From contig JAUSKK010000043.1 of the NCBI GenBank assembly GCA_030649345.1, forward strand, positions 1 through 8,836: DNA of 8,836 nt. The letters are read 5' to 3'. Origin of the DNA: Candidatus Iainarchaeum sp. (lineage in GTDB: Archaea; Iainarchaeota; Iainarchaeia; Iainarchaeales; 0-14-0-20-34-12). The first letter of the stretch is position 1. Each line of letters opens with the position of its first letter. Below the pieces are notes generated by a model. The model made no database searches. It was not told the origin of the DNA and worked only from the letters and a program-made list of their open reading frames with translations. Of this stretch, positions 1,963 to 7,499 are shown in pieces. A program made the translations under genes and the position numbers.

Positions 1963-3141
1963 ATGAGTAAACTTCGAAGAGTAGCAATGATTGGAGCAGG
2001 ATTAACTAAATTCGGAGAACATTGGAATTTAAGCTTCCGAGAACTCGGAACAGAAGCTGCCATTAAAGCTGTAGAAAATTCAAATATTGACGGAAAAGAA
2101 ATTGAAGCCATGTACATTGGATGTATGGCTTCTGGAAGATTTGTAGGCCAAGAACATATTGGAGCACTTGTAGCCGATCAACTTGGATTAAATCCAATTC
2201 CAAGCACTCGAGTTGAGGCTGCTTGTGCCAGCGGAGGATTGGCTTTGCGTACAGGATATTTAAGTATTGCCAGCGGAGAACACGACATTGTGGCTGTAGG
2301 CGGAATCGAAAAAATGACTGAAGTTACCACAGCAGAAGCAGGATTTGCCTTAGGTGGAGCCGGAGATCAAGAAACAGAATTATTTCACGGAGCAACTTTT
2401 CCTGCATTGTATGCTTTGTTAGCTAAAGTTCATATGAAACAATTTGGAACCACAGAAGAACAAATGGCTGCAGTGAGTGTCAAAAATCACAAAAATGCAG
2501 TTCACAATCCAATTGCTCAATTTCGAAAAGAAATATCCATAGAACAAGTCATGAAATCAGGATATGTTGCAACGCCTTTGAAATTATTGGATTGTTCTCC
2601 AATTTCAGACGGAGCTGCTGCAGTAATTTTAGCGGAAATTGGATTGGCTAAAAAATTATGCGAAAATCCAGTGGAAATTATTGGAAGCACGCATGCAACA
2701 GATTCTTTGGCTTTAACTGGAAGAAAAAGTTTAACAGAATTAAATGCAACCAAAGTTGCGAGTGCACAATTATTTCATCAAACAGGATTAACACCCAAAG
2801 ATATTGACATGGCTGAAGTACATGATTGTTTTAGTATTGCAGAAATTTTAGCCATAGAAGATATTGGATTTTTCAAAAAAGGACAAGGTGGACCAGCCAC
2901 AGAACAAGGAAAAACTGCCTTAGACGGAGAGATTGCAATTAATCCTTCCGGCGGCTTAAAAGGATGCGGTCATCCAGTGGGAGCTACAGGAGTCAAACAA
3001 GCCGCAGAAATGTTCCAGCAACTCAGAGGAGAAGCTGGAGGCAGGCAAGTCAAAGAAGCAGAAATTGGATTAACCCATAATGTAGGCGGCTCTGGGGCGA
3101 CCTGTGTTATGCATGCTTTTAGATTAATGGAAAATAGGTGA
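1963..3141 (+). CDS. Acetyl-CoA C-acetyltransferase (acetoacetyl-CoA thiolase), archaeal type
   Basis: The ORF is 392 aa. It carries VEAACASGG (acyl-Cys), GHPVGATG (His) and the C-terminal NVGGSGATCVMH. AGGTGA at 1952-1957 lies 5 nt before the ATG. The gene context is HMGCS and DUF35. Confidence 0.93.
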   Translation: MSKLRRVAMIGAGLTKFGEHWNLSFRELGTEAAIKAVENSNIDGKEIEAMYIGCMASGRFVGQEHIGALVADQLGLNPIPSTRVEAACASGGLALRTGYLSIASGEHDIVAVGGIEKMTEVTTAEAGFALGGAGDQETELFHGATFPALYALLAKVHMKQFGTTEEQMAAVSVKNHKNAVHNPIAQFRKEISIEQVMKSGYVATPLKLLDCSPISDGAAAVILAEIGLAKKLCENPVEIIGSTHATDSLALTGRKSLTELNATKVASAQLFHQTGLTPKDIDMAEVHDCFSIAEILAIEDIGFFKKGQGGPATEQGKTALDGEIAINPSGGLKGCGHPVGATGVKQAAEMFQQLRGEAGGRQVKEAEIGLTHNVGGSGATCVMHAFRLMENR

Positions 3142-3145
3142 AATT

Positions 3146-3258
3146 ATGATTTTGAATTTGAAAAATTTAAAAACTTATGAAAATTTTATAGATTTTCATA
3201 ATTATAAAATTCAACAGAATTTTATAACTTTTAAAATTCTTAGGGGGAATTTTGAATG
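3146..3258 (+). repeat. Copy 1 of a ~113-nt duplicated intergenic-like element
   Basis: By hand alignment to 4153-4266, 82 of the first 93 nt are identical. Perfect shared runs are GAAAATTTTATAGATTTTCA, AATTATAAAATTC and GAATTTTATAACTTTTAAAATT. Confidence 0.85.
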
Positions 3259-3259
3259 A
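3146..3259 (+). CDS. Candidate mini-ORF A (37 codons): MILNLKNLKTYENFIDFHNYKIQQNFITFKILRGNFE
   Basis: The ATG lies 4 nt after AGGTGA (3136-3141). The frame stays open for 37 codons in very AT-rich sequence. Its TGA overlaps the DUF35 start (ATGA at 3256-3259). A paralogous copy at 4153-4263 preserves the ATG, the frame and termination at the next start. It was not in the supplied ORF track because it is too short. Confidence 0.4.
   Translation: MILNLKNLKTYENFIDFHNYKIQQNFITFKILRGNFE
3202..3227. promoter_or_regulatory. Perfect palindrome TTATAAAATTC-AACA-GAATTTTATAA (11-bp arms, TATA-box-like arms)
   Basis: The arms are exact reverse complements. The second copy at 4209-4234 has identical arms but the loop is TGTT, the reverse complement of AACA. 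A second small inverted repeat, GAAAAT-TTTATAG-ATTTTC, lies at 3179-3197. Confidence 0.6.
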
Positions 3260-3705
3260 GTGATGGTTTAGCATTAAATTGGAGAAGAATTCCAGAAAGA
3301 TATGCAATGAAAGGAAATCATTGCACAAACTGCAAACAAGATTATTTTCCCAGCCGAATGATTTGCCCAAATTGCAGAAGAAAAGGACACTTGGTTTCCA
3401 AAGACATGCCTAGAATTGGAAAAATTGTCAGTTACACGAAAGTCATGGTCGGGCCTTCTGGTTTCGAAAATGAAGGAAATTATTATTTAGCCTTAATTGA
3501 TTTAGGTTCTGGAGCAAAAGTATTAAGTCAAATTGTAGATAGTGACGAACAAGACATTCATATTGGAGCTAGTGTCAAAAAAATGTTTCGAAAAATTGGA
3601 GAAGTAGAAGAAAAAGGAGCCATTACGTATGGATACAAATTCAAAGTAGTCAAACCTTTAACCGAAGACCAAGTGGAAGCATTGAAAGAAAAAAATAAAA
3701 AATAA
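3256..3705 (+). CDS. DUF35-family Zn-ribbon/OB-fold protein (partner of the archaeal thiolase/HMG-CoA synthase complex)
   Basis: The ORF is 149 aa. It has a CxxC-x10-CxxC zinc ribbon (C23, C26, C37, C40; nt 3322-3375) followed by a beta-rich OB-like segment (IVSYTKVMV, YYLALIDLGSGAKVLSQI, GASVKKMF). It has the conserved neighbourhood with thiolase and HMGCS. Confidence 0.88.
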   Translation: MSDGLALNWRRIPERYAMKGNHCTNCKQDYFPSRMICPNCRRKGHLVSKDMPRIGKIVSYTKVMVGPSGFENEGNYYLALIDLGSGAKVLSQIVDSDEQDIHIGASVKKMFRKIGEVEEKGAITYGYKFKVVKPLTEDQVEALKEKNKK

Positions 3706-3717
3706 GGAAGAAAACAT

Positions 3718-3915
3718 ATGCCAGCAGCTAGATTGCATACACAAAAAATACGGCGCATACGGCCAGCCAAAGAAAAAATATTTTTAGGCTTAAGCCCAAA
3801 AGAACAAGCCGCACGAAGAGCTAAAAGATTAGGCGTCAGACAAGGAAAAGAGTGGGAAGTAAATCGAGAACATAGACTAGCTGTTGTTACCAGAAGAAAC
3901 AGGATGAAAAAGTAA
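3718..3915 (+). CDS. Small Arg/Lys-rich protein (65 aa), family unknown
   Basis: The ATG lies 7 nt after GGAAG (3706-3710) and is tightly packed behind the DUF35 gene. Arg is encoded largely by CGN/AGA codons in an AT-rich context. The N-terminus MPAARLHTQKIRRIRPA aligns without gaps to residues 7-27 of the 265..873 ORF. Confidence 0.5.
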   Translation: MPAARLHTQKIRRIRPAKEKIFLGLSPKEQAARRAKRLGVRQGKEWEVNREHRLAVVTRRNRMKK

Positions 3916-4143
3916 TGCATAGTTTTTGAAAAAAACATAAAAAAAATAGGTGAATGCATAGAACGACGAAGAATTATTTTAAAGCAAGTAAAATTAGATA
4001 TTGCTGGAGCTCAAAGAGCCATTGCCAGAGAATTGGCTAGAAGAAGAGTACAAGAAAGACCTTTACCCATAGGATATACGCGTGTAGGAAAACCAGTATA
4101 TCCTGAACCAGAAAAAGGAAAAAAATTGGATAAAAAAGTTTGA
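3916..4143 (+). other. 75-codon stop-to-stop open frame lacking a canonical start; encodes an Arg-rich peptide (...IERRRIILKQVKLDIAGAQRAIARELARRRVQERPLPIGYTRVGKPVYPEPEKGKKLDKKV)
   Basis: It is in the same frame as 3718..3915 and separated from it only by the TAA at 3913-3915. AGGTGA at 3948-3953 suggests independent initiation, but the nearby ATG (3954) is in another frame that stops after 28 codons. The only in-frame candidates near the SD are ATA at 3958 or ATT at 3973. Confidence 0.3.
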
Positions 4144-4152
4144 GGAAAAAAC

Positions 4153-4263
4153 ATGATTTTAAAATTAAAAATTTTAAAAGCTTTTGAAAATTTTATAGAT
4201 TTTCACAATTATAAAATTCTGTTGAATTTTATAACTTTTAAAATTTCGGAGGCGAAATTTTAA
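4153..4263 (+). CDS. Candidate mini-ORF B (36 codons): MILKLKILKAFENFIDFHNYKILLNFITFKISEAKF
   Basis: The ATG lies 6 nt after GAGGA (4142-4146). The frame is open for 36 codons, and its TAA (4261-4263) directly abuts the kinase ATG at 4264. It shares 26 of 36 residues with mini-ORF A. Three of the nucleotide differences are silent (Leu3, Leu5, His18). Confidence 0.4.
   Translation: MILKLKILKAFENFIDFHNYKILLNFITFKISEAKF
4209..4234. promoter_or_regulatory. Perfect palindrome TTATAAAATTC-TGTT-GAATTTTATAA (loop flipped relative to 3202-3227)
   Basis: The arms are exact reverse complements and identical to copy 1. The loop is the reverse complement of the copy 1 loop. Confidence 0.6.
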
Positions 4264-5259
4264 ATGAAAAGTGTAAAAGCCAGTGCACCCGGAAGTTTAT
4301 TTTTTGCAGGAGAACATGCCGTAGTTTATAATTTACCAGCAATTGTAACTGCAGTAGGAAAACGAACCTATGTAACTGCAACTCAAAGATTAGATAATAA
4401 AATAATTATAATCTCAGACTCATTTGAAAACGCAGAAGCACAAATAGTTGGACAATCATTAATTAATCGAAAATTTGAAAAAATAGCTTTAGAACCTTTA
4501 TTGGATTTATGTGAAAAATGTGTCCAAGAATTTAAATTAACTCAAGGATTTGAATTAAACATTGAATCTGAAATTATGCCGGAATCTGGAATGAGTAGTT
4601 CTACGGCTGTTCTTTGTGCAATTTTGAAAGCATTGGATGGATTGCATAATTGGAATATTAGAGAAGAAAACTATTTTGATTTTTTATTGCCTTTTCAAGT
4701 AAAAATTCACGGCGGAAAAGCTTCAGGAGCAGAATTGGCCAGCAGTTCTATTGGAGGATTTAATTTAGTTCAAAAAATACAAATTGGAAATACCACAAAA
4801 TTAAACAGAACAAATTTGGGAAAAAAAGAATTTTGTATTGTTATTGGAAACACAAAAATTAGAAGTGCAACCGCATTGGCAGTACAGCATGTAGCTAACT
4901 TAAAACAAAGAAAACCAAAAAGTGTAGAAGAAGCTTTTGGAAAAATTGAAAAAATTGTAAAAGAAATGGAAAAAGCCATTGCAAAAGGAAATGAAATAAA
5001 AGTTGGAGAATTAATGAATGAAAACCAAAAATGGTTAACTGTACTTGGAGTCAGCCATCCTAAATTAGATGAATGCATTCAAACAGCTTTAGCTTACGGT
5101 GCTTTAGGAGCAAAGTTAAGTGGCGGCGGATGGGGTGGATGTATGTTTGCTTTAGTAAGAAAACAAGACCAAAACAAAATTGCCAATGCATTAAAAGAAT
5201 TAAATTGTGAAAGTATTGTAACTGAAATTGGAGTAGAAGGAGTTAGAATTGAAAAATAG
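4264..5259 (+). CDS. mvk: Mevalonate kinase family GHMP kinase (divergent)
   Basis: The ORF is 331 aa. It has APGSLFFAGEHAVVYNLPAIVTAV (the MVK-type N-terminal motif), the GHMP motif II PESGMSSSTAV, and motif III KLSGGGWGGCMFAL. GGAGG at 4248-4252 lies upstream. It sits within a mevalonate-pathway cluster. Confidence 0.85.
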   Translation: MKSVKASAPGSLFFAGEHAVVYNLPAIVTAVGKRTYVTATQRLDNKIIIISDSFENAEAQIVGQSLINRKFEKIALEPLLDLCEKCVQEFKLTQGFELNIESEIMPESGMSSSTAVLCAILKALDGLHNWNIREENYFDFLLPFQVKIHGGKASGAELASSSIGGFNLVQKIQIGNTTKLNRTNLGKKEFCIVIGNTKIRSATALAVQHVANLKQRKPKSVEEAFGKIEKIVKEMEKAIAKGNEIKVGELMNENQKWLTVLGVSHPKLDECIQTALAYGALGAKLSGGGWGGCMFALVRKQDQNKIANALKELNCESIVTEIGVEGVRIEK

Positions 5260-5266
5260 ATGAATT

Positions 5267-6547
5267 ATGCCAAAACCAAGAATTCCCAGCAGAGTAAAGA
5301 CAGTGCGAAAAGCCATAGCTCGTGCAATTCACGAACGGCCAGAATTGGTTCACCCAACACTACGTGAACCACAGCCAGCGTATGGATTACGGCATCGATT
5401 GGATAAAGGACATCAAAAAGCAAAAAAGGCATTCATTGATTTTAAAAAATTACGCACGCAAATTTTGCGATTAAAACCCATTCAAACATTATTGAAAAAT
5501 GATCTGAATGTACGAAAACGATTGAATCGAATTTTAAGAGAAGCTGTAAGTGAAACAGGATTTAGAGCAACCGAAGAATTATGGGGCGTGCGAACAGCTG
5601 CAGCCATCAAAGGCGGAACAAGATCTATTTCAGTTAGAGCTAAAGGAATGCCAACTCAAATGAATGAACACGCAGGAAAAAAAGTAGCTCAAGAACTTCG
5701 GTCTGTACGGAATCCCAATATTGTAGATATTGGAACTGGCGGAGGAGAAACAATTTTAGAATTAGCTAAAGCATTGTCTCCAGAACAGCGAAGAAATGCG
5801 CGCATTACTTTGGTAGACGTAATGACATCTGATTTAACAAGAACGAAATTGGAATTATCACGATTGGGAATTCCGTTTGGCAATGTCCGAATACTTCCAG
5901 TCTCGTTTGTACAATTGGCTGAAAGTATTGGAGCTAAAGCACGCAGTCCATTTACTGGAAAAACTACTAGAGACTCTGGAACAGAACGAGAATTCAAAAC
6001 AATGATGGGTTCAGCAGACGCTGTAGTCAGCGGGGCTACGTTTAACAACTTTAATAATTTACAACCTATTGCCAAAGCAGTGAAAAGTTTACTGAAACCA
6101 GGCGGAACAATGGCAGTATGGGACTGGGCTGGAGTAGATACGTATGCTAAAAAAGTTTCTGTAGTGAATGCTCGTGGAGAAAAAAAAGTTCGCACAACCC
6201 ATGGAACACAGCCAACGTATCGAGATTCGCTTAAATCTTTTTTAGATTTTTGGTTAAAATCATGGGAATTTCCAGAGCAAGTACGAACTCAACTTGAGCA
6301 TGAAATCAATACAGCAAAACGATTTGATTTTGAAGAATTTTTACACAGACATGTTAATTTACTGCCGGAAAACCAGCGAGGAAATACAAAAGTAGCTCGA
6401 ATGAATAGAGCGTATAGATTACCCGAAGATATTGCACAGGATTTCCAAAGAACTGGATTTAGAATTACACGAACAGAATATCCGTTTGCCAGCACTGGCG
6501 TGAATGTTGGGAATTTGACTTATTTAATGTTAGCTAAGAAAAAGTGA
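5267..6547 (+). CDS. Class I SAM-dependent methyltransferase with a ~140-aa basic N-terminal extension
   Basis: The ORF is 426 aa. Motif I is VDIGTGGGE (nt 5723-5749), an acidic residue ends the next strand (ITLVDV), and LKPGGTMAVWDW matches a later Rossmann-fold methyltransferase motif. Residues 1-140 are Arg/Lys-rich (MPKPRIPSRVKTVRKAIARAIHERP...), and I cannot assign a domain to them. Confidence 0.78.
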   Translation: MPKPRIPSRVKTVRKAIARAIHERPELVHPTLREPQPAYGLRHRLDKGHQKAKKAFIDFKKLRTQILRLKPIQTLLKNDLNVRKRLNRILREAVSETGFRATEELWGVRTAAAIKGGTRSISVRAKGMPTQMNEHAGKKVAQELRSVRNPNIVDIGTGGGETILELAKALSPEQRRNARITLVDVMTSDLTRTKLELSRLGIPFGNVRILPVSFVQLAESIGAKARSPFTGKTTRDSGTEREFKTMMGSADAVVSGATFNNFNNLQPIAKAVKSLLKPGGTMAVWDWAGVDTYAKKVSVVNARGEKKVRTTHGTQPTYRDSLKSFLDFWLKSWEFPEQVRTQLEHEINTAKRFDFEEFLHRHVNLLPENQRGNTKVARMNRAYRLPEDIAQDFQRTGFRITRTEYPFASTGVNVGNLTYLMLAKKK

Positions 6548-6551
6548 TTCT

Positions 6552-7361
6552 GTGAAATTAAATGAAGTGGATTTTAAAAAAATTTGTTTTATTTTTGATT
6601 TAGAAGGCGTACTGATTCAGCATATTTCCAGACAAGCAAAAATTATAGAAACTGCTTTTGAAGAAACAGGGATAAAATTAAGGTTCAAGATAAAAGAGAT
6701 TTATCATTTGCGAACCTATCCTGAAATTCATGGAAGTAAAAAATTTTTCCCTGCAATATATGCACTTAACAAATCTGACATTAAATTGAAAGAATGCAAA
6801 GAAAATATTTATGTAATTGAAAAAATAATAAACGAAGTCAAAAAATTGGCTCCAATGGAGTTACGCCAGGCAGGAAATGCTGAAATCCAATATATGGAAA
6901 TGAGAAAAAAACCTGAACTATTTCAAGAACTGGAAACCGTTATTCCGGGTGCGCAAAAAACTATTCGATTTTTGAAAAAAAATGGAATCAAAATTGCTGT
7001 TGCAACCCGAGCACACAAAATACAAAATGAAGCATTGCTGAAACGATTTGGATTAAAGGAATACATAGATTACAGTGTTACAAAAGAAGATTTTGGAATG
7101 GACAATGAATTCAAGCAGACAGGAGAACCTACATTAAAAATTGCAGAACAATTAAAGATTCAACCCAAACACTGCATTTTTGTAGAAGATTCAGTGGCTG
7201 GAATTAAAGGAGCTAAATTAGCTGGAGCCAAAACAATTGGAGTTTTAACCGGAACCAGCTCAAAAACGCAATTCGAAATCTATGGAAAGCCTGATTTAGT
7301 GCTAAAAAGCGTAGCTGAAATTAAAGAAAAATTTAAAACAATTGTAAAATTAATAAAATGA
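6552..7361 (+). CDS. HAD-superfamily hydrolase (subfamily IA-like, beta-phosphoglucomutase/phosphatase type) with an atypical motif I
   Basis: The ORF is 269 aa with a GTG start 4 nt after AAGTGA. Motif I is FIFDLEGVL (D16, E18; nt 6597-6605), motif II is IAVATRA, a Lys lies in KQTGEP, and motif IV is FVEDSVAGIKGAKLAGA. The insert between motifs I and II is long and consistent with a cap domain. Confidence 0.82.
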   Translation: MKLNEVDFKKICFIFDLEGVLIQHISRQAKIIETAFEETGIKLRFKIKEIYHLRTYPEIHGSKKFFPAIYALNKSDIKLKECKENIYVIEKIINEVKKLAPMELRQAGNAEIQYMEMRKKPELFQELETVIPGAQKTIRFLKKNGIKIAVATRAHKIQNEALLKRFGLKEYIDYSVTKEDFGMDNEFKQTGEPTLKIAEQLKIQPKHCIFVEDSVAGIKGAKLAGAKTIGVLTGTSSKTQFEIYGKPDLVLKSVAEIKEKFKTIVKLIK

Positions 7362-7385
7362 TTTAACCCTTAAATGGAGTTACGT

Positions 7386-7499
7386 ATGGAAAAGAAAGAT
7401 AGGCTAAAAATTATTGCATTCGATTTTGACGGAGGTCTTATTAATTATTTTGGGTATTTTATTGATATTAACTTTATTAAAAATTTTAGCGTAAATTGA
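7386..7499 (+). pseudogene. 37-codon ORF resembling the N-terminus of a HAD hydrolase (possible truncated gene remnant)
   Basis: The ORF reads MEKKDRLKIIAFDFDGGLINYFGYFIDINFIKNFSVN and contains the canonical hhhhDxDG motif I (IIAFDFDG). GGAG at 7376-7379 lies 6 nt upstream of the ATG. The frame stops at 7497-7499 and nothing downstream continues the fold. Confidence 0.3.

What the first reader, a model, noticed from the sequence alone, without database searches (positions are those of the whole stretch)
3202..3227. Perfect 11-bp-arm palindrome whose 4-nt loop is inverted between the two copies
Copy 1 reads TTATAAAATTC-AACA-GAATTTTATAA (3202-3227) and copy 2 reads TTATAAAATTC-TGTT-GAATTTTATAA (4209-4234). 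The arms are identical and perfectly complementary, and the loops are reverse complements of each other. The whole 26-nt unit has therefore been flipped in one copy. Flip-flop of a loop between conserved inverted arms is the classic footprint of a hairpin or cruciform that forms in vivo, or of recombination between the arms. This implies the palindrome is a structural unit rather than chance AT-rich symmetry. Both arms are TATA-box-like (TTATAAAA / TTTTATAA). A second conserved inverted repeat lies just upstream, GAAAAT-TTTATAG-ATTTTC at 3179-3197 and 4186-4204, with a TTTATA loop. Candidate roles are an operator for a dimeric regulator overlapping an internal promoter, or an RNA hairpin inside the mini-ORF that modulates ribosome passage to the downstream start. 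If the mini-ORF is translated, the flip converts Gln-Gln to Leu-Leu. The small HTH-like ORF at 2-268 is an untested candidate binder.
Basis: seen in the sequence. Interest (0 to 1): 0.65.

Follow-up and report, generated by a model that had tools for sequence, protein, structure and literature searches.

The report
Start-codon-inserting palindromic repeat in a DPANN archaeon
The flipped-loop palindrome is real; it is the conserved core of a ~110-base AT-rich repeat that has inserted exactly at the start codons of two mevalonate-pathway genes in a DPANN archaeon, bringing a replacement ribosome-binding site and an open reading frame running through it, much as MIRU repeats do in mycobacteria.

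Summary
In detail: perfect 11-bp arms at 3202-3227 and 4209-4234, with loops AACA and TGTT that are exact reverse complements.

The palindrome is hairpin H3 of a 110/111-nt, 16 % GC, four-hairpin element (3146-3255 and 4153-4263).

- **Insertion.** Each copy starts at an ATG 4-9 nt after the upstream stop and ends at the ATG of the next gene (DUF35 scaffold gene, mevalonate kinase). The closest relative (MVK 78 % aa) has an empty site: removing 111 nt restores colinearity. Removing copy 1 restores the 'GGTGA-N4-ATG' thiolase/DUF35 junction seen in seven relatives.
- **Other copies.** A profile of the two mini-ORF peptides found two more copies in other metagenome assemblies. One lies between the Rpp29 and uS17 genes with the same architecture, 10-bp arms and loop AAGA.
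- **The flip.** Copy 2 therefore carries the derived flip, the known outcome of template switching at inverted repeats.
- **Best reading (0.6).** A mobile, MIRU-like intercistronic element that is translated through, keeping downstream expression coupled.

Copy number, mobilising enzyme and any promoter or operator role are untested. No Rfam, Pfam, TIR or intron signature was found.

The parts
3146..3255 (+). Element copy 1 (110 nt, 16 % GC), from the ATG 4 nt after the thiolase stop to the base before the DUF35 ATG
   Evidence: Repeat family D1; blastn 85 % to copy 2; homology to copy 2 and L099 begins at the 5' ATG and ends at the gene ATG; removing it restores the GGTGA-N4-ATG junction seen in relatives
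4153..4263 (+). Element copy 2 (111 nt, 16 % GC), from the ATG 9 nt after the sb2 stop to the TAA abutting the MVK ATG
   Evidence: empty site in relative L091: colinear once 111 nt are removed
3146..3259 (+). Mini-ORF 1 (37 codons, MILNLKNLKTYENFIDFHNYKIQQNFITFKILRGNFE); its TGA overlaps the DUF35 ATG (ATGA, -4 spacing)
   Evidence: the only open frame of six; this frame is open in 3 % of dinucleotide shuffles
4153..4263 (+). Mini-ORF 2 (36 codons, MILKLKILKAFENFIDFHNYKILLNFITFKISEAKF); its TAA directly abuts the MVK ATG
3150..3172 (+). Hairpin H1, copy 1 (10 bp, includes one G.U)
   Evidence: compensatory pairs at element positions 12/20 and 8/24 across the three copies
3178..3198 (+). Hairpin H2, copy 1 (TGAAAATTT-TAT-AGATTTTCA); contains the BRE/TATA-like GAAAATTTTATAG
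   Evidence: 9 pairs, invariant in 3 copies; the promoter resemblance is by inspection only
3202..3227 (+). Hairpin H3, copy 1: the reported palindrome, 11-bp arms, loop AACA (ancestral orientation)
   Evidence: L099 has loop AAGA in the same orientation
3230..3256 (+). Hairpin H4, copy 1 (12 bp with three G.U); the element's own Shine-Dalgarno GGGGG (3243-3247) sits at the apex and the DUF35 AUG at the 3' foot
4157..4179 (+). Hairpin H1, copy 2
4185..4205 (+). Hairpin H2, copy 2
4209..4234 (+). Hairpin H3, copy 2: palindrome with the inverted (derived) loop TGTT
4237..4264 (+). Hairpin H4, copy 2 (perfect 12 bp); Shine-Dalgarno GGAGG (4248-4252) at the apex and the MVK AUG at the 3' foot
3136..3141 (+). 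Host Shine-Dalgarno-like AGGTGA (last thiolase codon plus stop) that now precedes the mini-ORF 1 ATG
   Evidence: same GGTGA-N4-ATG junction in relatives
4142..4145 (+). Host Shine-Dalgarno-like GAGG that serves MVK directly in relative L091 and now precedes the mini-ORF 2 ATG

Best explanation
The 26-nt palindrome is the conserved central hairpin (H3) of a roughly 110-140-nt, very AT-rich repeat element found in a small group of DPANN (Iainarchaeota-like) archaea.

The element behaves as mobile or copied DNA that lands exactly at the start codon of a gene inside an operon. After insertion, the host's old Shine-Dalgarno sequence and ATG start a 36-45-codon frame that runs through all the element's hairpins. 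That frame stops on or next to a regenerated ATG of the host gene (spacing -4 to 0). The element also carries its own Shine-Dalgarno sequence at the tip of its last hairpin (H4), whose 3' foot is the host AUG. Ribosomes translating the through-ORF would open H4 and terminate at the gene's start, so the downstream gene stays translationally coupled and the insertion is tolerated.

The AACA-to-TGTT loop flip in copy 2 is a single inversion, produced by intrastrand template switching or cruciform-type recombination between the perfect arms. It was neutral because it changes neither the stem nor the openness of the frame.

Shown: the repeat, the precise insertions, the empty sites, the shared architecture at four loci, the conserved hairpin plan, and the derived state of the flip. 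Inferred: translation of the through-ORF, the coupling, mobility as an active process, and the way the flip arose.
For: 1. Repeat. 3146-3259 and 4153-4267 are 85 % identical between unrelated flanks.
2. Insertion.
- Relative L091 (MVK 78 % aa, 77.5 % nt) reads ...TTTGAGGAAAAAA-ATG-AAGACTGTAAAAGCC. The window is colinear with it once 111 nt are removed.
- Removing copy 1 leaves AGGTGA-AATT-ATG, the same GGTGA-N4-ATG junction as L004, L006, L008, L009, L011, L013 and L026.
- 44 of 81 relatives have a thiolase/DUF35 gap of 7 nt or less.
3. Family.
- A profile of the two mini-ORFs against 1.84 billion proteins returned two 45-aa ORFs, P0289 (E = 3e-10) and P0292 (E = 9e-4).
- In L099 the element lies between the Rpp29 and uS17 genes: ATG 3 nt after the upstream stop, GGAGG, then TAA-ATG.
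- On the P0292 contig the ORF starts 13 nt after one gene and overlaps the next by 1 nt.
4. Structure.
- All three DNA copies fold into the same H1-H4 plan, with z = -4.6, -3.9 and -4.85.
- H1 has two both-sided changes, and the top pairs of H4 differ in sequence but pair in every copy.
- L099's extra 30 nt nests as a hairpin inside H2.
5. Not an ordinary gene.
- GC is 16 %, below every 110-nt coding window of the contig (minimum 20.9 %).
- Homologous H4 nucleotides are read in different frames in copy 1, copy 2 and L099, yet the frame stays open.
- No Pfam or NCBIfam family matches.
6. Flip polarity. Copy 1 (AACA) and L099 (AAGA) share an orientation; copy 2 is the exact reverse complement of copy 1.
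7. Precedent.
- Template switching gives loop inversion and arm homogenisation (PMC8794818, PMC8604942).
- MIRUs 'insert themselves at start codons' with an internal ORF coupled at -4 nt (PMC12548453, citing Supply 1997).
Against: - Only four copies are known, three with DNA. Genome-wide copy number, orientation bias and a mobilising enzyme are unknown.
- There are no terminal inverted repeats above shuffle level. The only flanking direct repeat is ATG or ATGA, which is also the start codon itself, so the insertion mechanism is undefined.
- The two database copies were found through their ORFs, so they are ascertainment-biased toward open frames. For the unbiased copies, frame openness is only p of about 0.03.
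- Covariation is thin: 2 both-sided changes, reached by 46 of 500 shuffles. Template switching can produce such changes without selection.
- The termini vary (10 of 29 sites) while the H2-H3 core is nearly invariant (1 of 45; Fisher p = 2e-4). This is the reverse of a typical transposase-end pattern and points to a sequence-specific role for the core that this model does not explain.
- Many relatives carry unrelated small ORFs wedged at the same junction, so junction position alone is not specific to this element.
- There are no expression data.
Confidence: 0.6

Rival explanations
1. Portable promoter/operator cassette. The invariant H2-H3 core is a BRE/TATA box (GAAAATTTTATAG) followed about 10 nt later by a palindromic operator for a dimeric regulator. 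The element gives DUF35 and MVK an internal, regulated promoter. The loop flip is neutral because a dimer does not read the central 4-bp spacer.
For: - The core (element positions 33-67 and 72-81) varies at 1 of 45 sites, against 10 of 29 in H1 and 4 of 4 in the loop. This indicates constraint on sequence rather than only on pairing.
- H2 and H3 show no covariation.
- There is no consistent sense/antisense difference in hairpin stability, as expected for a dsDNA site.
- By inspection, the TATA-like box would place a start site in or near the H3 loop.
- The element is the most AT-rich stretch of the contig.
Against: - The ancestral junctions are tightly coupled cistrons that need no promoter.
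- This reading does not explain the conserved open frame, the exact ATG-to-ATG boundaries, or H4 with the Shine-Dalgarno sequence at its apex.
- No regulator is identified; ORF 2-268 has no family match.
- The promoter match is by eye in a 16 % GC sequence, where TATA-like strings are expected.
- P0292's peptide implies several changes in the core and a mismatch near the outer end of the arm (inference).
Confidence: 0.2
2. A small mobile protein-coding gene. The 36-45-aa peptide is the functional product, and the hairpins are incidental to AT-rich coding sequence.
For: - The ORF is open in all four copies, starts at an ATG behind a Shine-Dalgarno-like sequence, and is called as a gene in two assemblies.
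- Peptide identity is 62-72 %.
- There is an apparent excess of synonymous differences between copies 1 and 2 (pN/pS 0.22, binomial p = 0.018).
- Size differences among the copies total a multiple of 3 nt, so the frame is kept.
- Unrelated small ORFs occupy the same junction in relatives.
Against: - GC of 16 % lies outside the range of all coding windows.
- Perfect 11-12-bp palindromes are unusual in coding sequence.
- The C-terminal third is read in different frames in different copies.
- The flip changes Gln-Gln to Leu-Leu.
- The 'synonymous' changes are G/A transitions that are also G.U-to-A-U changes in the stems.
- pN/pS versus L099 is 0.29-0.56 and not significant.
- No family matches.
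- Database hits are biased toward open frames.
Confidence: 0.1
3. A host cis-regulatory structured RNA (a leader, thermometer or protein-binding element) duplicated locally to co-regulate two mevalonate genes; not mobile.
For: - The multi-hairpin fold is conserved with strongly negative z-scores.
- The Shine-Dalgarno sequence and AUG are embedded in H4.
- Two copies lie in one pathway operon.
- Copies 1 and 2 share the AACA loop ancestry.
Against: - The third copy lies in a ribosomal-protein/RNase P operon and the fourth among unrelated genes.
- It is absent from the closest relative at MVK.
- It is absent from 80 species' mevalonate loci by blastn, nhmmer and a covariance model.
- Rfam has no match.
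Confidence: 0.07
4. An RNA-level intervening sequence (an archaeal bulge-helix-bulge intron or similar) removed from the mRNA to restore the original junction.
For: The element is bounded by the same ATG on both sides, so precise removal would regenerate the ancestral junction.
Against: - No bulge-helix-bulge candidate has the required spacing at homologous positions in the three copies.
- Pairing between the two exon flanks is no better than shuffles.
- The element is too small for a group I or II intron.
- Rfam has no match.
Confidence: 0.02

Closest known systems
Mycobacterial interspersed repetitive units (MIRUs; Supply et al. 1997, as summarised in PMC12548453)
   Same: Both are short repeats located between co-oriented cistrons and inserted at start codons. 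Both carry an internal ORF in the host orientation whose stop overlaps or abuts the downstream start (-4 nt in copy 1). The proposed consequence is the same: the insertion is tolerated because translational coupling is preserved.
   Different: Different domain of life, and no sequence relationship was tested. MIRUs are 46-101-bp units, often in tandem arrays and used for VNTR typing, and are not built from perfect palindromes (from my own knowledge). This element is a single 110-140-nt unit made of four or five AU-rich hairpins, and it carries its own Shine-Dalgarno sequence.
Palindromic repeats with coding potential: Rickettsia palindromic elements (RPE) and the M. jannaschii repeats of Suyama et al. 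2005 (via PMC10969869 and PMC2229807)
   Same: Both are AT-rich palindromic repeats of about 100-150 bp that keep a reading frame open and so can sit in translated sequence.
   Different: RPE and the M. jannaschii repeats are found fused in frame inside host proteins. This element sits at the cistron boundary, has its own stop, and does not alter either host protein.
Co-transcribed hairpin repeats of bacteria (REP/BIME, ERIC, Correia/NEMIS, YPAL)
   Same: Both are intergenic, transcribed within operons, and fold into stable stem-loops that can affect the mRNA of neighbouring genes.
   Different: Those elements have TIRs/TA duplications or RAYT partners. Here no TIR is detectable, the target is the start codon, and the termini are the least conserved part.
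Template-switch mutations at inverted repeats (loop or spacer inversion, arm homogenisation)
   Same: The pattern is exactly the one reported: identical perfect arms, the loop replaced by its reverse complement, and compensatory changes in neighbouring stems (PMC8794818, PMC8604942).
   Different: This explains how the flip arose. It does not explain what the element is or does.

Membership tests
MIRU-like start-codon-inserting intercistronic repeat (functional class) | Lies between co-oriented cistrons of an operon, in the same orientation | tested here: met
   Thiolase|DUF35, sb2|MVK, Rpp29|uS17, and two ORFs on the P0292 contig; all on the + strand relative to their neighbours
MIRU-like start-codon-inserting intercistronic repeat (functional class) | Insertion exactly at a start codon, shown by filled versus empty sites | tested here: met
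   L091 empty site for copy 2; the GGTGA-N4-ATG junction is restored for copy 1; homology begins and ends at an ATG
MIRU-like start-codon-inserting intercistronic repeat (functional class) | Internal ORF whose stop overlaps or abuts the downstream start | tested here: met
   Spacing is -4 (copy 1), 0 (copy 2, L099) and -1 (P0292)
MIRU-like start-codon-inserting intercistronic repeat (functional class) | Sequence homology to mycobacterial MIRUs / tandem arrays of 46-101-bp units | not tested
   No MIRU sequence was compared. No tandem arrays occur here; the only internal duplication is the 30-nt H2-like module in L099
MITE (miniature inverted-repeat transposable element) | Terminal inverted repeats | tested here: not met
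   The best 5' versus reverse-complemented 3' alignment is reached by 110, 33 and 89 of 500 shuffles
MITE (miniature inverted-repeat transposable element) | Target-site duplication | tested here: inconclusive
   ATGA flanks both window copies and ATG flanks L099. This cannot be told apart from the element carrying its own ATG
MITE (miniature inverted-repeat transposable element) | Many dispersed copies per genome and a partner transposase | not testable with these tools
REP/BIME or IS200/IS605-derived hairpin elements | Hairpin-based element without TIR/TSD, linked to a Y1 HUH transposase (RAYT/TnpA) | not testable with these tools
   Hairpins are present and TIRs absent, but no transposase gene is available to link
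RPE-type in-frame palindromic insertions | Inserted inside a host coding sequence as an in-frame fusion | tested here: not met
   The N-termini of DUF35 and MVK match relatives from the ATG after the element, and the element has its own stop
Archaeal bulge-helix-bulge intron | h-B(3)-H(4 bp)-B(3)-h' motif joining the two junctions | tested here: not met
   No candidate has the required spacing at homologous positions; exon-exon pairing is at shuffle level
Any curated RNA family (Rfam 15) | Covariance-model match | tested here: not met
   No match in or near the elements even at E up to 10
Archaeal BRE/TATA promoter with palindromic operator | TBP/TFB-dependent initiation; regulator binding | not testable with these tools
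   Only a by-eye resemblance of GAAAATTTTATAG and an invariant core
Known small-protein family | Profile match of the mini-ORF peptide | tested here: not met
   No Pfam or NCBIfam match for any of the four peptides at E up to 1

The most novel reading that the evidence does not exclude
A previously undescribed family of archaeal (DPANN) mobile elements that home to start codons inside operons. Each would be a self-contained 'translation-coupling cassette': a through-ORF, a hairpin-displayed Shine-Dalgarno sequence and a regenerated AUG. Its invariant H2-H3 core, containing the 26-nt palindrome, would be the recognition hairpin for an unknown mobilising enzyme acting on single-stranded or cruciform DNA, or would double as a portable BRE/TATA-plus-operator module.
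Probability: 0.35. Interest if true: 0.7.

Novelty: new variant of a known kind. Interest (0 to 1): 0.55.

Why it matters
DPANN archaea have very compact genomes, and little is known about their mobile DNA or their control of translation. An element that can insert inside essential operons (mevalonate pathway, ribosomal-protein/RNase P) without breaking them would be an independent archaeal counterpart of mycobacterial MIRUs. It would do so by duplicating the start codon, supplying a ribosome-binding site and staying translatable. It would also be a natural example of the 'bicistronic design' trick, in which a short ORF delivers ribosomes to a downstream gene.

It offers a concrete test case for the RNA-unfolding and reinitiation models of translational coupling in archaea. 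It provides a marker of recent genome change in uncultured lineages. The loop flip itself is a clean natural example of spacer inversion at a perfect inverted repeat.

Tried and rejected
- **Rfam.** A scan of the whole window at E up to 10 found nothing at the elements.
- **Exact-arm pattern scans.** Seven JGI metagenome hits and one IMG/VR hit share only the palindrome; their flanks are unrelated, so they are chance AT-rich palindromes.
- **Three further IMG/VR scans** with H2, the core, and H3-H4 patterns gave only 19-30-nt chance matches, or none.
- **80 GTDB species' mevalonate loci plus other relatives (635 kb).** blastn, nhmmer and a covariance model of H1-H3 found no further copy.
- **Closer relative for the copy-1 junction.** A search with the thiolase C-terminus found nothing above 74 % identity. 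The 86 % DUF35 relative P0014 has no retrievable DNA.
- **Flanks of the source genome.** Exact look-ups of window proteins added no new sequence.
- **Bulge-helix-bulge intron.** Rejected.
- **Terminal inverted repeats.** Not above shuffles.
- **Integron attC.** Considered from memory. By eye the ends lack the RYYYAAC...GTTRRRY core sites, and the neighbours are conserved syntenic genes rather than cassettes; not pursued.
- **Translational bypassing** between the two ATGs. Considered and dropped: the distance is 110 nt and no stop follows the first ATG.
- **Codon-based selection test.** Too few differences, and confounded by stem G.U/A-U changes.
- **Sense versus antisense hairpin stability,** to separate RNA-level from DNA-level pairing. 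Inconsistent between copies.

Full report
**1. Context**

The 8836-nt window (35.6 % GC) is one + strand operon of the archaeal mevalonate pathway. In order it carries:
- two unassigned ORFs (2-268 and 265-873);
- HMG-CoA synthase (874-1938);
- acetoacetyl-CoA thiolase (1963-3141);
- the DUF35/OB-fold scaffold protein (3256-3705);
- two small basic ORFs (3718-3915 and about 3958-4143);
- mevalonate kinase, MVK (4264-5259);
- a methyltransferase, a HAD hydrolase and an MVD-like decarboxylase.

The nearest homologues of DUF35 are at most 69 % identical over full length. Where named, they come from Candidatus Iainarchaeum / Diapherotrites / Micrarchaeota MAGs, so the source is a DPANN archaeon. 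An independent Logan assembly of SRR13727527 carries the same sequence across both elements.

**2. The observation**

- The two 26-mers are at the stated coordinates, with perfect 11-bp arms. They are the only matches to the arm pattern even at three mismatches; none is expected from shuffles.
- The loops AACA and TGTT are exact reverse complements.
- As ssDNA each hairpin folds at about -6.9 kcal/mol, with z of about -8.
- The upstream GAAAAT-TTTATAG-ATTTTC repeat and the Gln-Gln to Leu-Leu consequence of the flip are also correct.
- Outside the loop the copies differ at about 12 % of positions. Four adjacent changes giving the exact reverse complement are therefore very unlikely as point mutations (my estimate, about 1e-5 or less). 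One inversion is the economical reading.

**3. The palindrome is one hairpin of a larger repeat**

- 3146-3259 and 4153-4267 align at 85 % identity, while the flanking genes are unrelated.
- Each copy has 16 % GC. This is below every 110-nt coding window of the contig, whose minimum is 20.9 %.
- Each copy folds into four consecutive hairpins, H1 to H4; the reported palindrome is H3. MFE is -29.3 and -28.8 kcal/mol, with z = -4.6 and -3.9.
- H4 carries a Shine-Dalgarno sequence (GGGGG or GGAGG) at its apex, and the AUG of the downstream gene sits at its 3' foot.
- One frame of six is open in both copies. It starts at an ATG 4 nt (copy 1) or 9 nt (copy 2) after the upstream stop. It ends in ATGA overlapping the DUF35 start (copy 1) or in TAA abutting the MVK start (copy 2).
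- Under dinucleotide shuffling, that frame is open in about 3 % of sequences.

**4. Both copies are insertions at start codons**

- *Copy 2.* The closest MVK relative is P0050 (78 % aa; contig L091, Logan SRR14366766). There the orthologue of the small basic ORF is followed 8 nt later by the MVK ATG...AAAATTTGAGGAAAAAA-ATG-AAGACTGTAAAAGCC. The window is colinear with this once the 111 nt at 4153-4263 are removed. MVK is 77.5 % identical at the nucleotide level and 62 % at third codon positions. More distant relatives also lack the element between DUF35 and MVK, so gain in the window's lineage is the parsimonious reading.
- *Copy 1.* No close relative covering this junction could be retrieved. 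Removing 3146-3255 leaves AGGTGA-AATT-ATG. This is the same GGTGA-N4-ATG thiolase/DUF35 junction as in L004, L006, L008, L009, L011, L013 and L026. In 44 of 81 relatives the gap is 7 nt or less.

**5. The family exists elsewhere, with the same architecture**

A profile of the two mini-ORF peptides, searched against 1.84 billion representative proteins, returned two 45-aa ORFs: P0289 (E = 3e-10) and P0292 (E = 9e-4).

- *P0289* lies on a groundwater contig, L099 (ENA ERZ978281), between an RNase P Rpp29 gene and an archaeal uS17 gene. Its ATG is 3 nt after the upstream stop and behind a GGGTGA. It carries an internal GGAGG, and its TAA directly abuts the uS17 ATG.
- *P0292* lies in ENA sample ERZ27297570, the same sample as the 86 % DUF35 relative P0014. 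It starts 13 nt after one ORF and overlaps the next by 1 nt. Its DNA was not retrievable.

Alignment of the three DNA copies shows that homology begins at the 5' ATG and ends at the gene's ATG. L099 has an extra 30-nt H2-like module that nests as a hairpin inside H2. The overall fold is the same, with z = -4.85. Its H3 is TATAAAATTC-AAGA-GAATTTTATA, with 10-bp arms and the loop in the same orientation as copy 1. Copy 2 therefore carries the derived, flipped loop.

No further copy was found in:
- 635 kb of relatives' loci;
- JGI metagenomes, searched with the exact-arm pattern;
- IMG/VR.

**6. What is conserved**

- Over the first 81 aligned positions, the H1 region varies at 10 of 29 sites and the loop at 4 of 4. 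The H2-H3 core varies at only 1 of 45 sites (Fisher p = 2e-4).
- H1 has two pairs changed on both sides (U-A/A-U and U-A/C-G) and one G.U/A-U change. H2 and H3 never vary, so they say nothing about pairing. Overall covariation is weak: 46 of 500 shuffles reach the observed value.
- The upper pairs of H4 differ in sequence in all three copies but always pair.
- Stability on the sense versus antisense strand is inconsistent between copies, so RNA-level and DNA-level pairing cannot be separated.
- The peptide is not what is conserved. Homologous H4 nucleotides are read in different frames in copy 1, copy 2 and L099, yet the frame stays open. The flip replaces Gln-Gln with Leu-Leu.
- pN/pS estimates (0.22-0.56) rest on 10-12 differences and are confounded by stem-neutral G/A transitions.
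- No Pfam or NCBIfam family matches.
- The two database copies were found through their ORFs, so their open frames are not independent evidence.

**7. Most likely mechanism**

The element is DNA copied or transposed to the start codon of a cistron.

- After insertion, the host's old Shine-Dalgarno sequence and ATG drive a through-ORF across H1-H4.
- That ORF terminates within -4 to 0 nt of a regenerated ATG.
- The element's own Shine-Dalgarno sequence sits at the H4 apex.

This matches the spacing and the RNA-unfolding / reinitiation logic of translational coupling reviewed in PMC12548453. [quoted passage not shown] 1997.

The loop flip, and possibly the compensatory stem changes, are what template switching at inverted repeats produces (PMC8794818; PMC8604942).

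The insertions and the shared architecture are shown. Translation, coupling and active mobility are inferred.

**8. Rivals**

- *Portable BRE/TATA-plus-operator cassette (0.2).* This best explains the invariant core and the neutrality of the loop orientation. It does not explain the ATG-to-ATG boundaries, the open frame, or H4.
- *Functional small protein (0.1).* Disfavoured by composition, by the frame shifts across H4, and by the Gln-Gln to Leu-Leu change.
- *Non-mobile pathway-specific RNA regulator (0.07).* Contradicted by the copy in a ribosomal-protein operon and by its absence from relatives.
- *Bulge-helix-bulge intron (0.02).* Fails the motif test.

MITE membership is not established. 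No TIR rises above shuffles, and the ATG/ATGA flanking repeat is ambiguous.

**9. Limits**

- Only three DNA copies and one peptide-only copy are known.
- The genome-wide census, any partner enzyme and all expression data are missing.
- The relationship between L099's host and the window's organism is unknown. The 85-88 % identity of the element between them therefore cannot yet be read as either constraint or recent transfer.

**10. Verdict**

The feature is best filed as a new archaeal variant of a known kind: an intercistronic repeat that inserts at start codons and is translated through, like MIRUs, and is built from palindromes, like RPE- or REP-type elements.

Noticed in passing
window 3949-4143: The second small basic ORF (sb2) has ATA at the position where its orthologue in L091 has the ATG start, and it has no canonical in-frame start. 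An out-of-frame ATG lies at 3954. It could be a pseudogene, use a non-canonical start, or reflect a sequencing error.
   Followed up: partly
window 3718-3915, 5267-7361 versus L091: The closest relative lacks sb1, the methyltransferase and the HAD gene; in L091 MVK is followed directly by the MVD-like gene. The window's operon is therefore a mosaic of several lineage-specific insertions besides the two repeat copies.
   Followed up: partly
window 7374-7499: A 41-aa ORF (MEKKDRLKIIAFDFDGG...) in the 165-nt HAD/MVD spacer looks like an N-terminal HAD motif-I fragment. It may be a gene remnant.
   Followed up: no
L010 3823-3992, L016 3782-3989, L005 1240-1519, L046 3684-4001, L017 3746-4001, L002 5653-5982: Many Iainarchaeota/Micrarchaeota relatives carry unrelated small ORFs packed between the thiolase stop and the DUF35 start. 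Some are basic 'MPA...' proteins of about 50-110 aa; others look like membrane proteins. The window's sb1 (MPAARLHTQK...) and the N-terminus of the methyltransferase (MPKPRIPSRV...) resemble the basic type. This cistron boundary seems to be a hot spot for insertions.
   Followed up: partly
L018 4353-4398 and 5765-5810: The last 46 nt of the DUF35 gene are duplicated (96 % identical) 1.4 kb downstream. This looks like an att-type duplication around an integrated segment.
   Followed up: no
window 3154 and 3254 (element positions 9 and 109): Copy 1 has G at both positions, each forming a G.U pair (in H1 and H4). Copy 2 and L099 have A at both. The two sites lie in the short direct repeat ATTTTRAAT at the two ends of the element. 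The correlated change is unexplained.
   Followed up: no
window 3661-3705 and L091 40-102: DUF35 in the window and in L091 carries a C-terminal extension of about 15 residues (KPLTEDQ...) that is absent from most relatives (132-134 aa).
   Followed up: no
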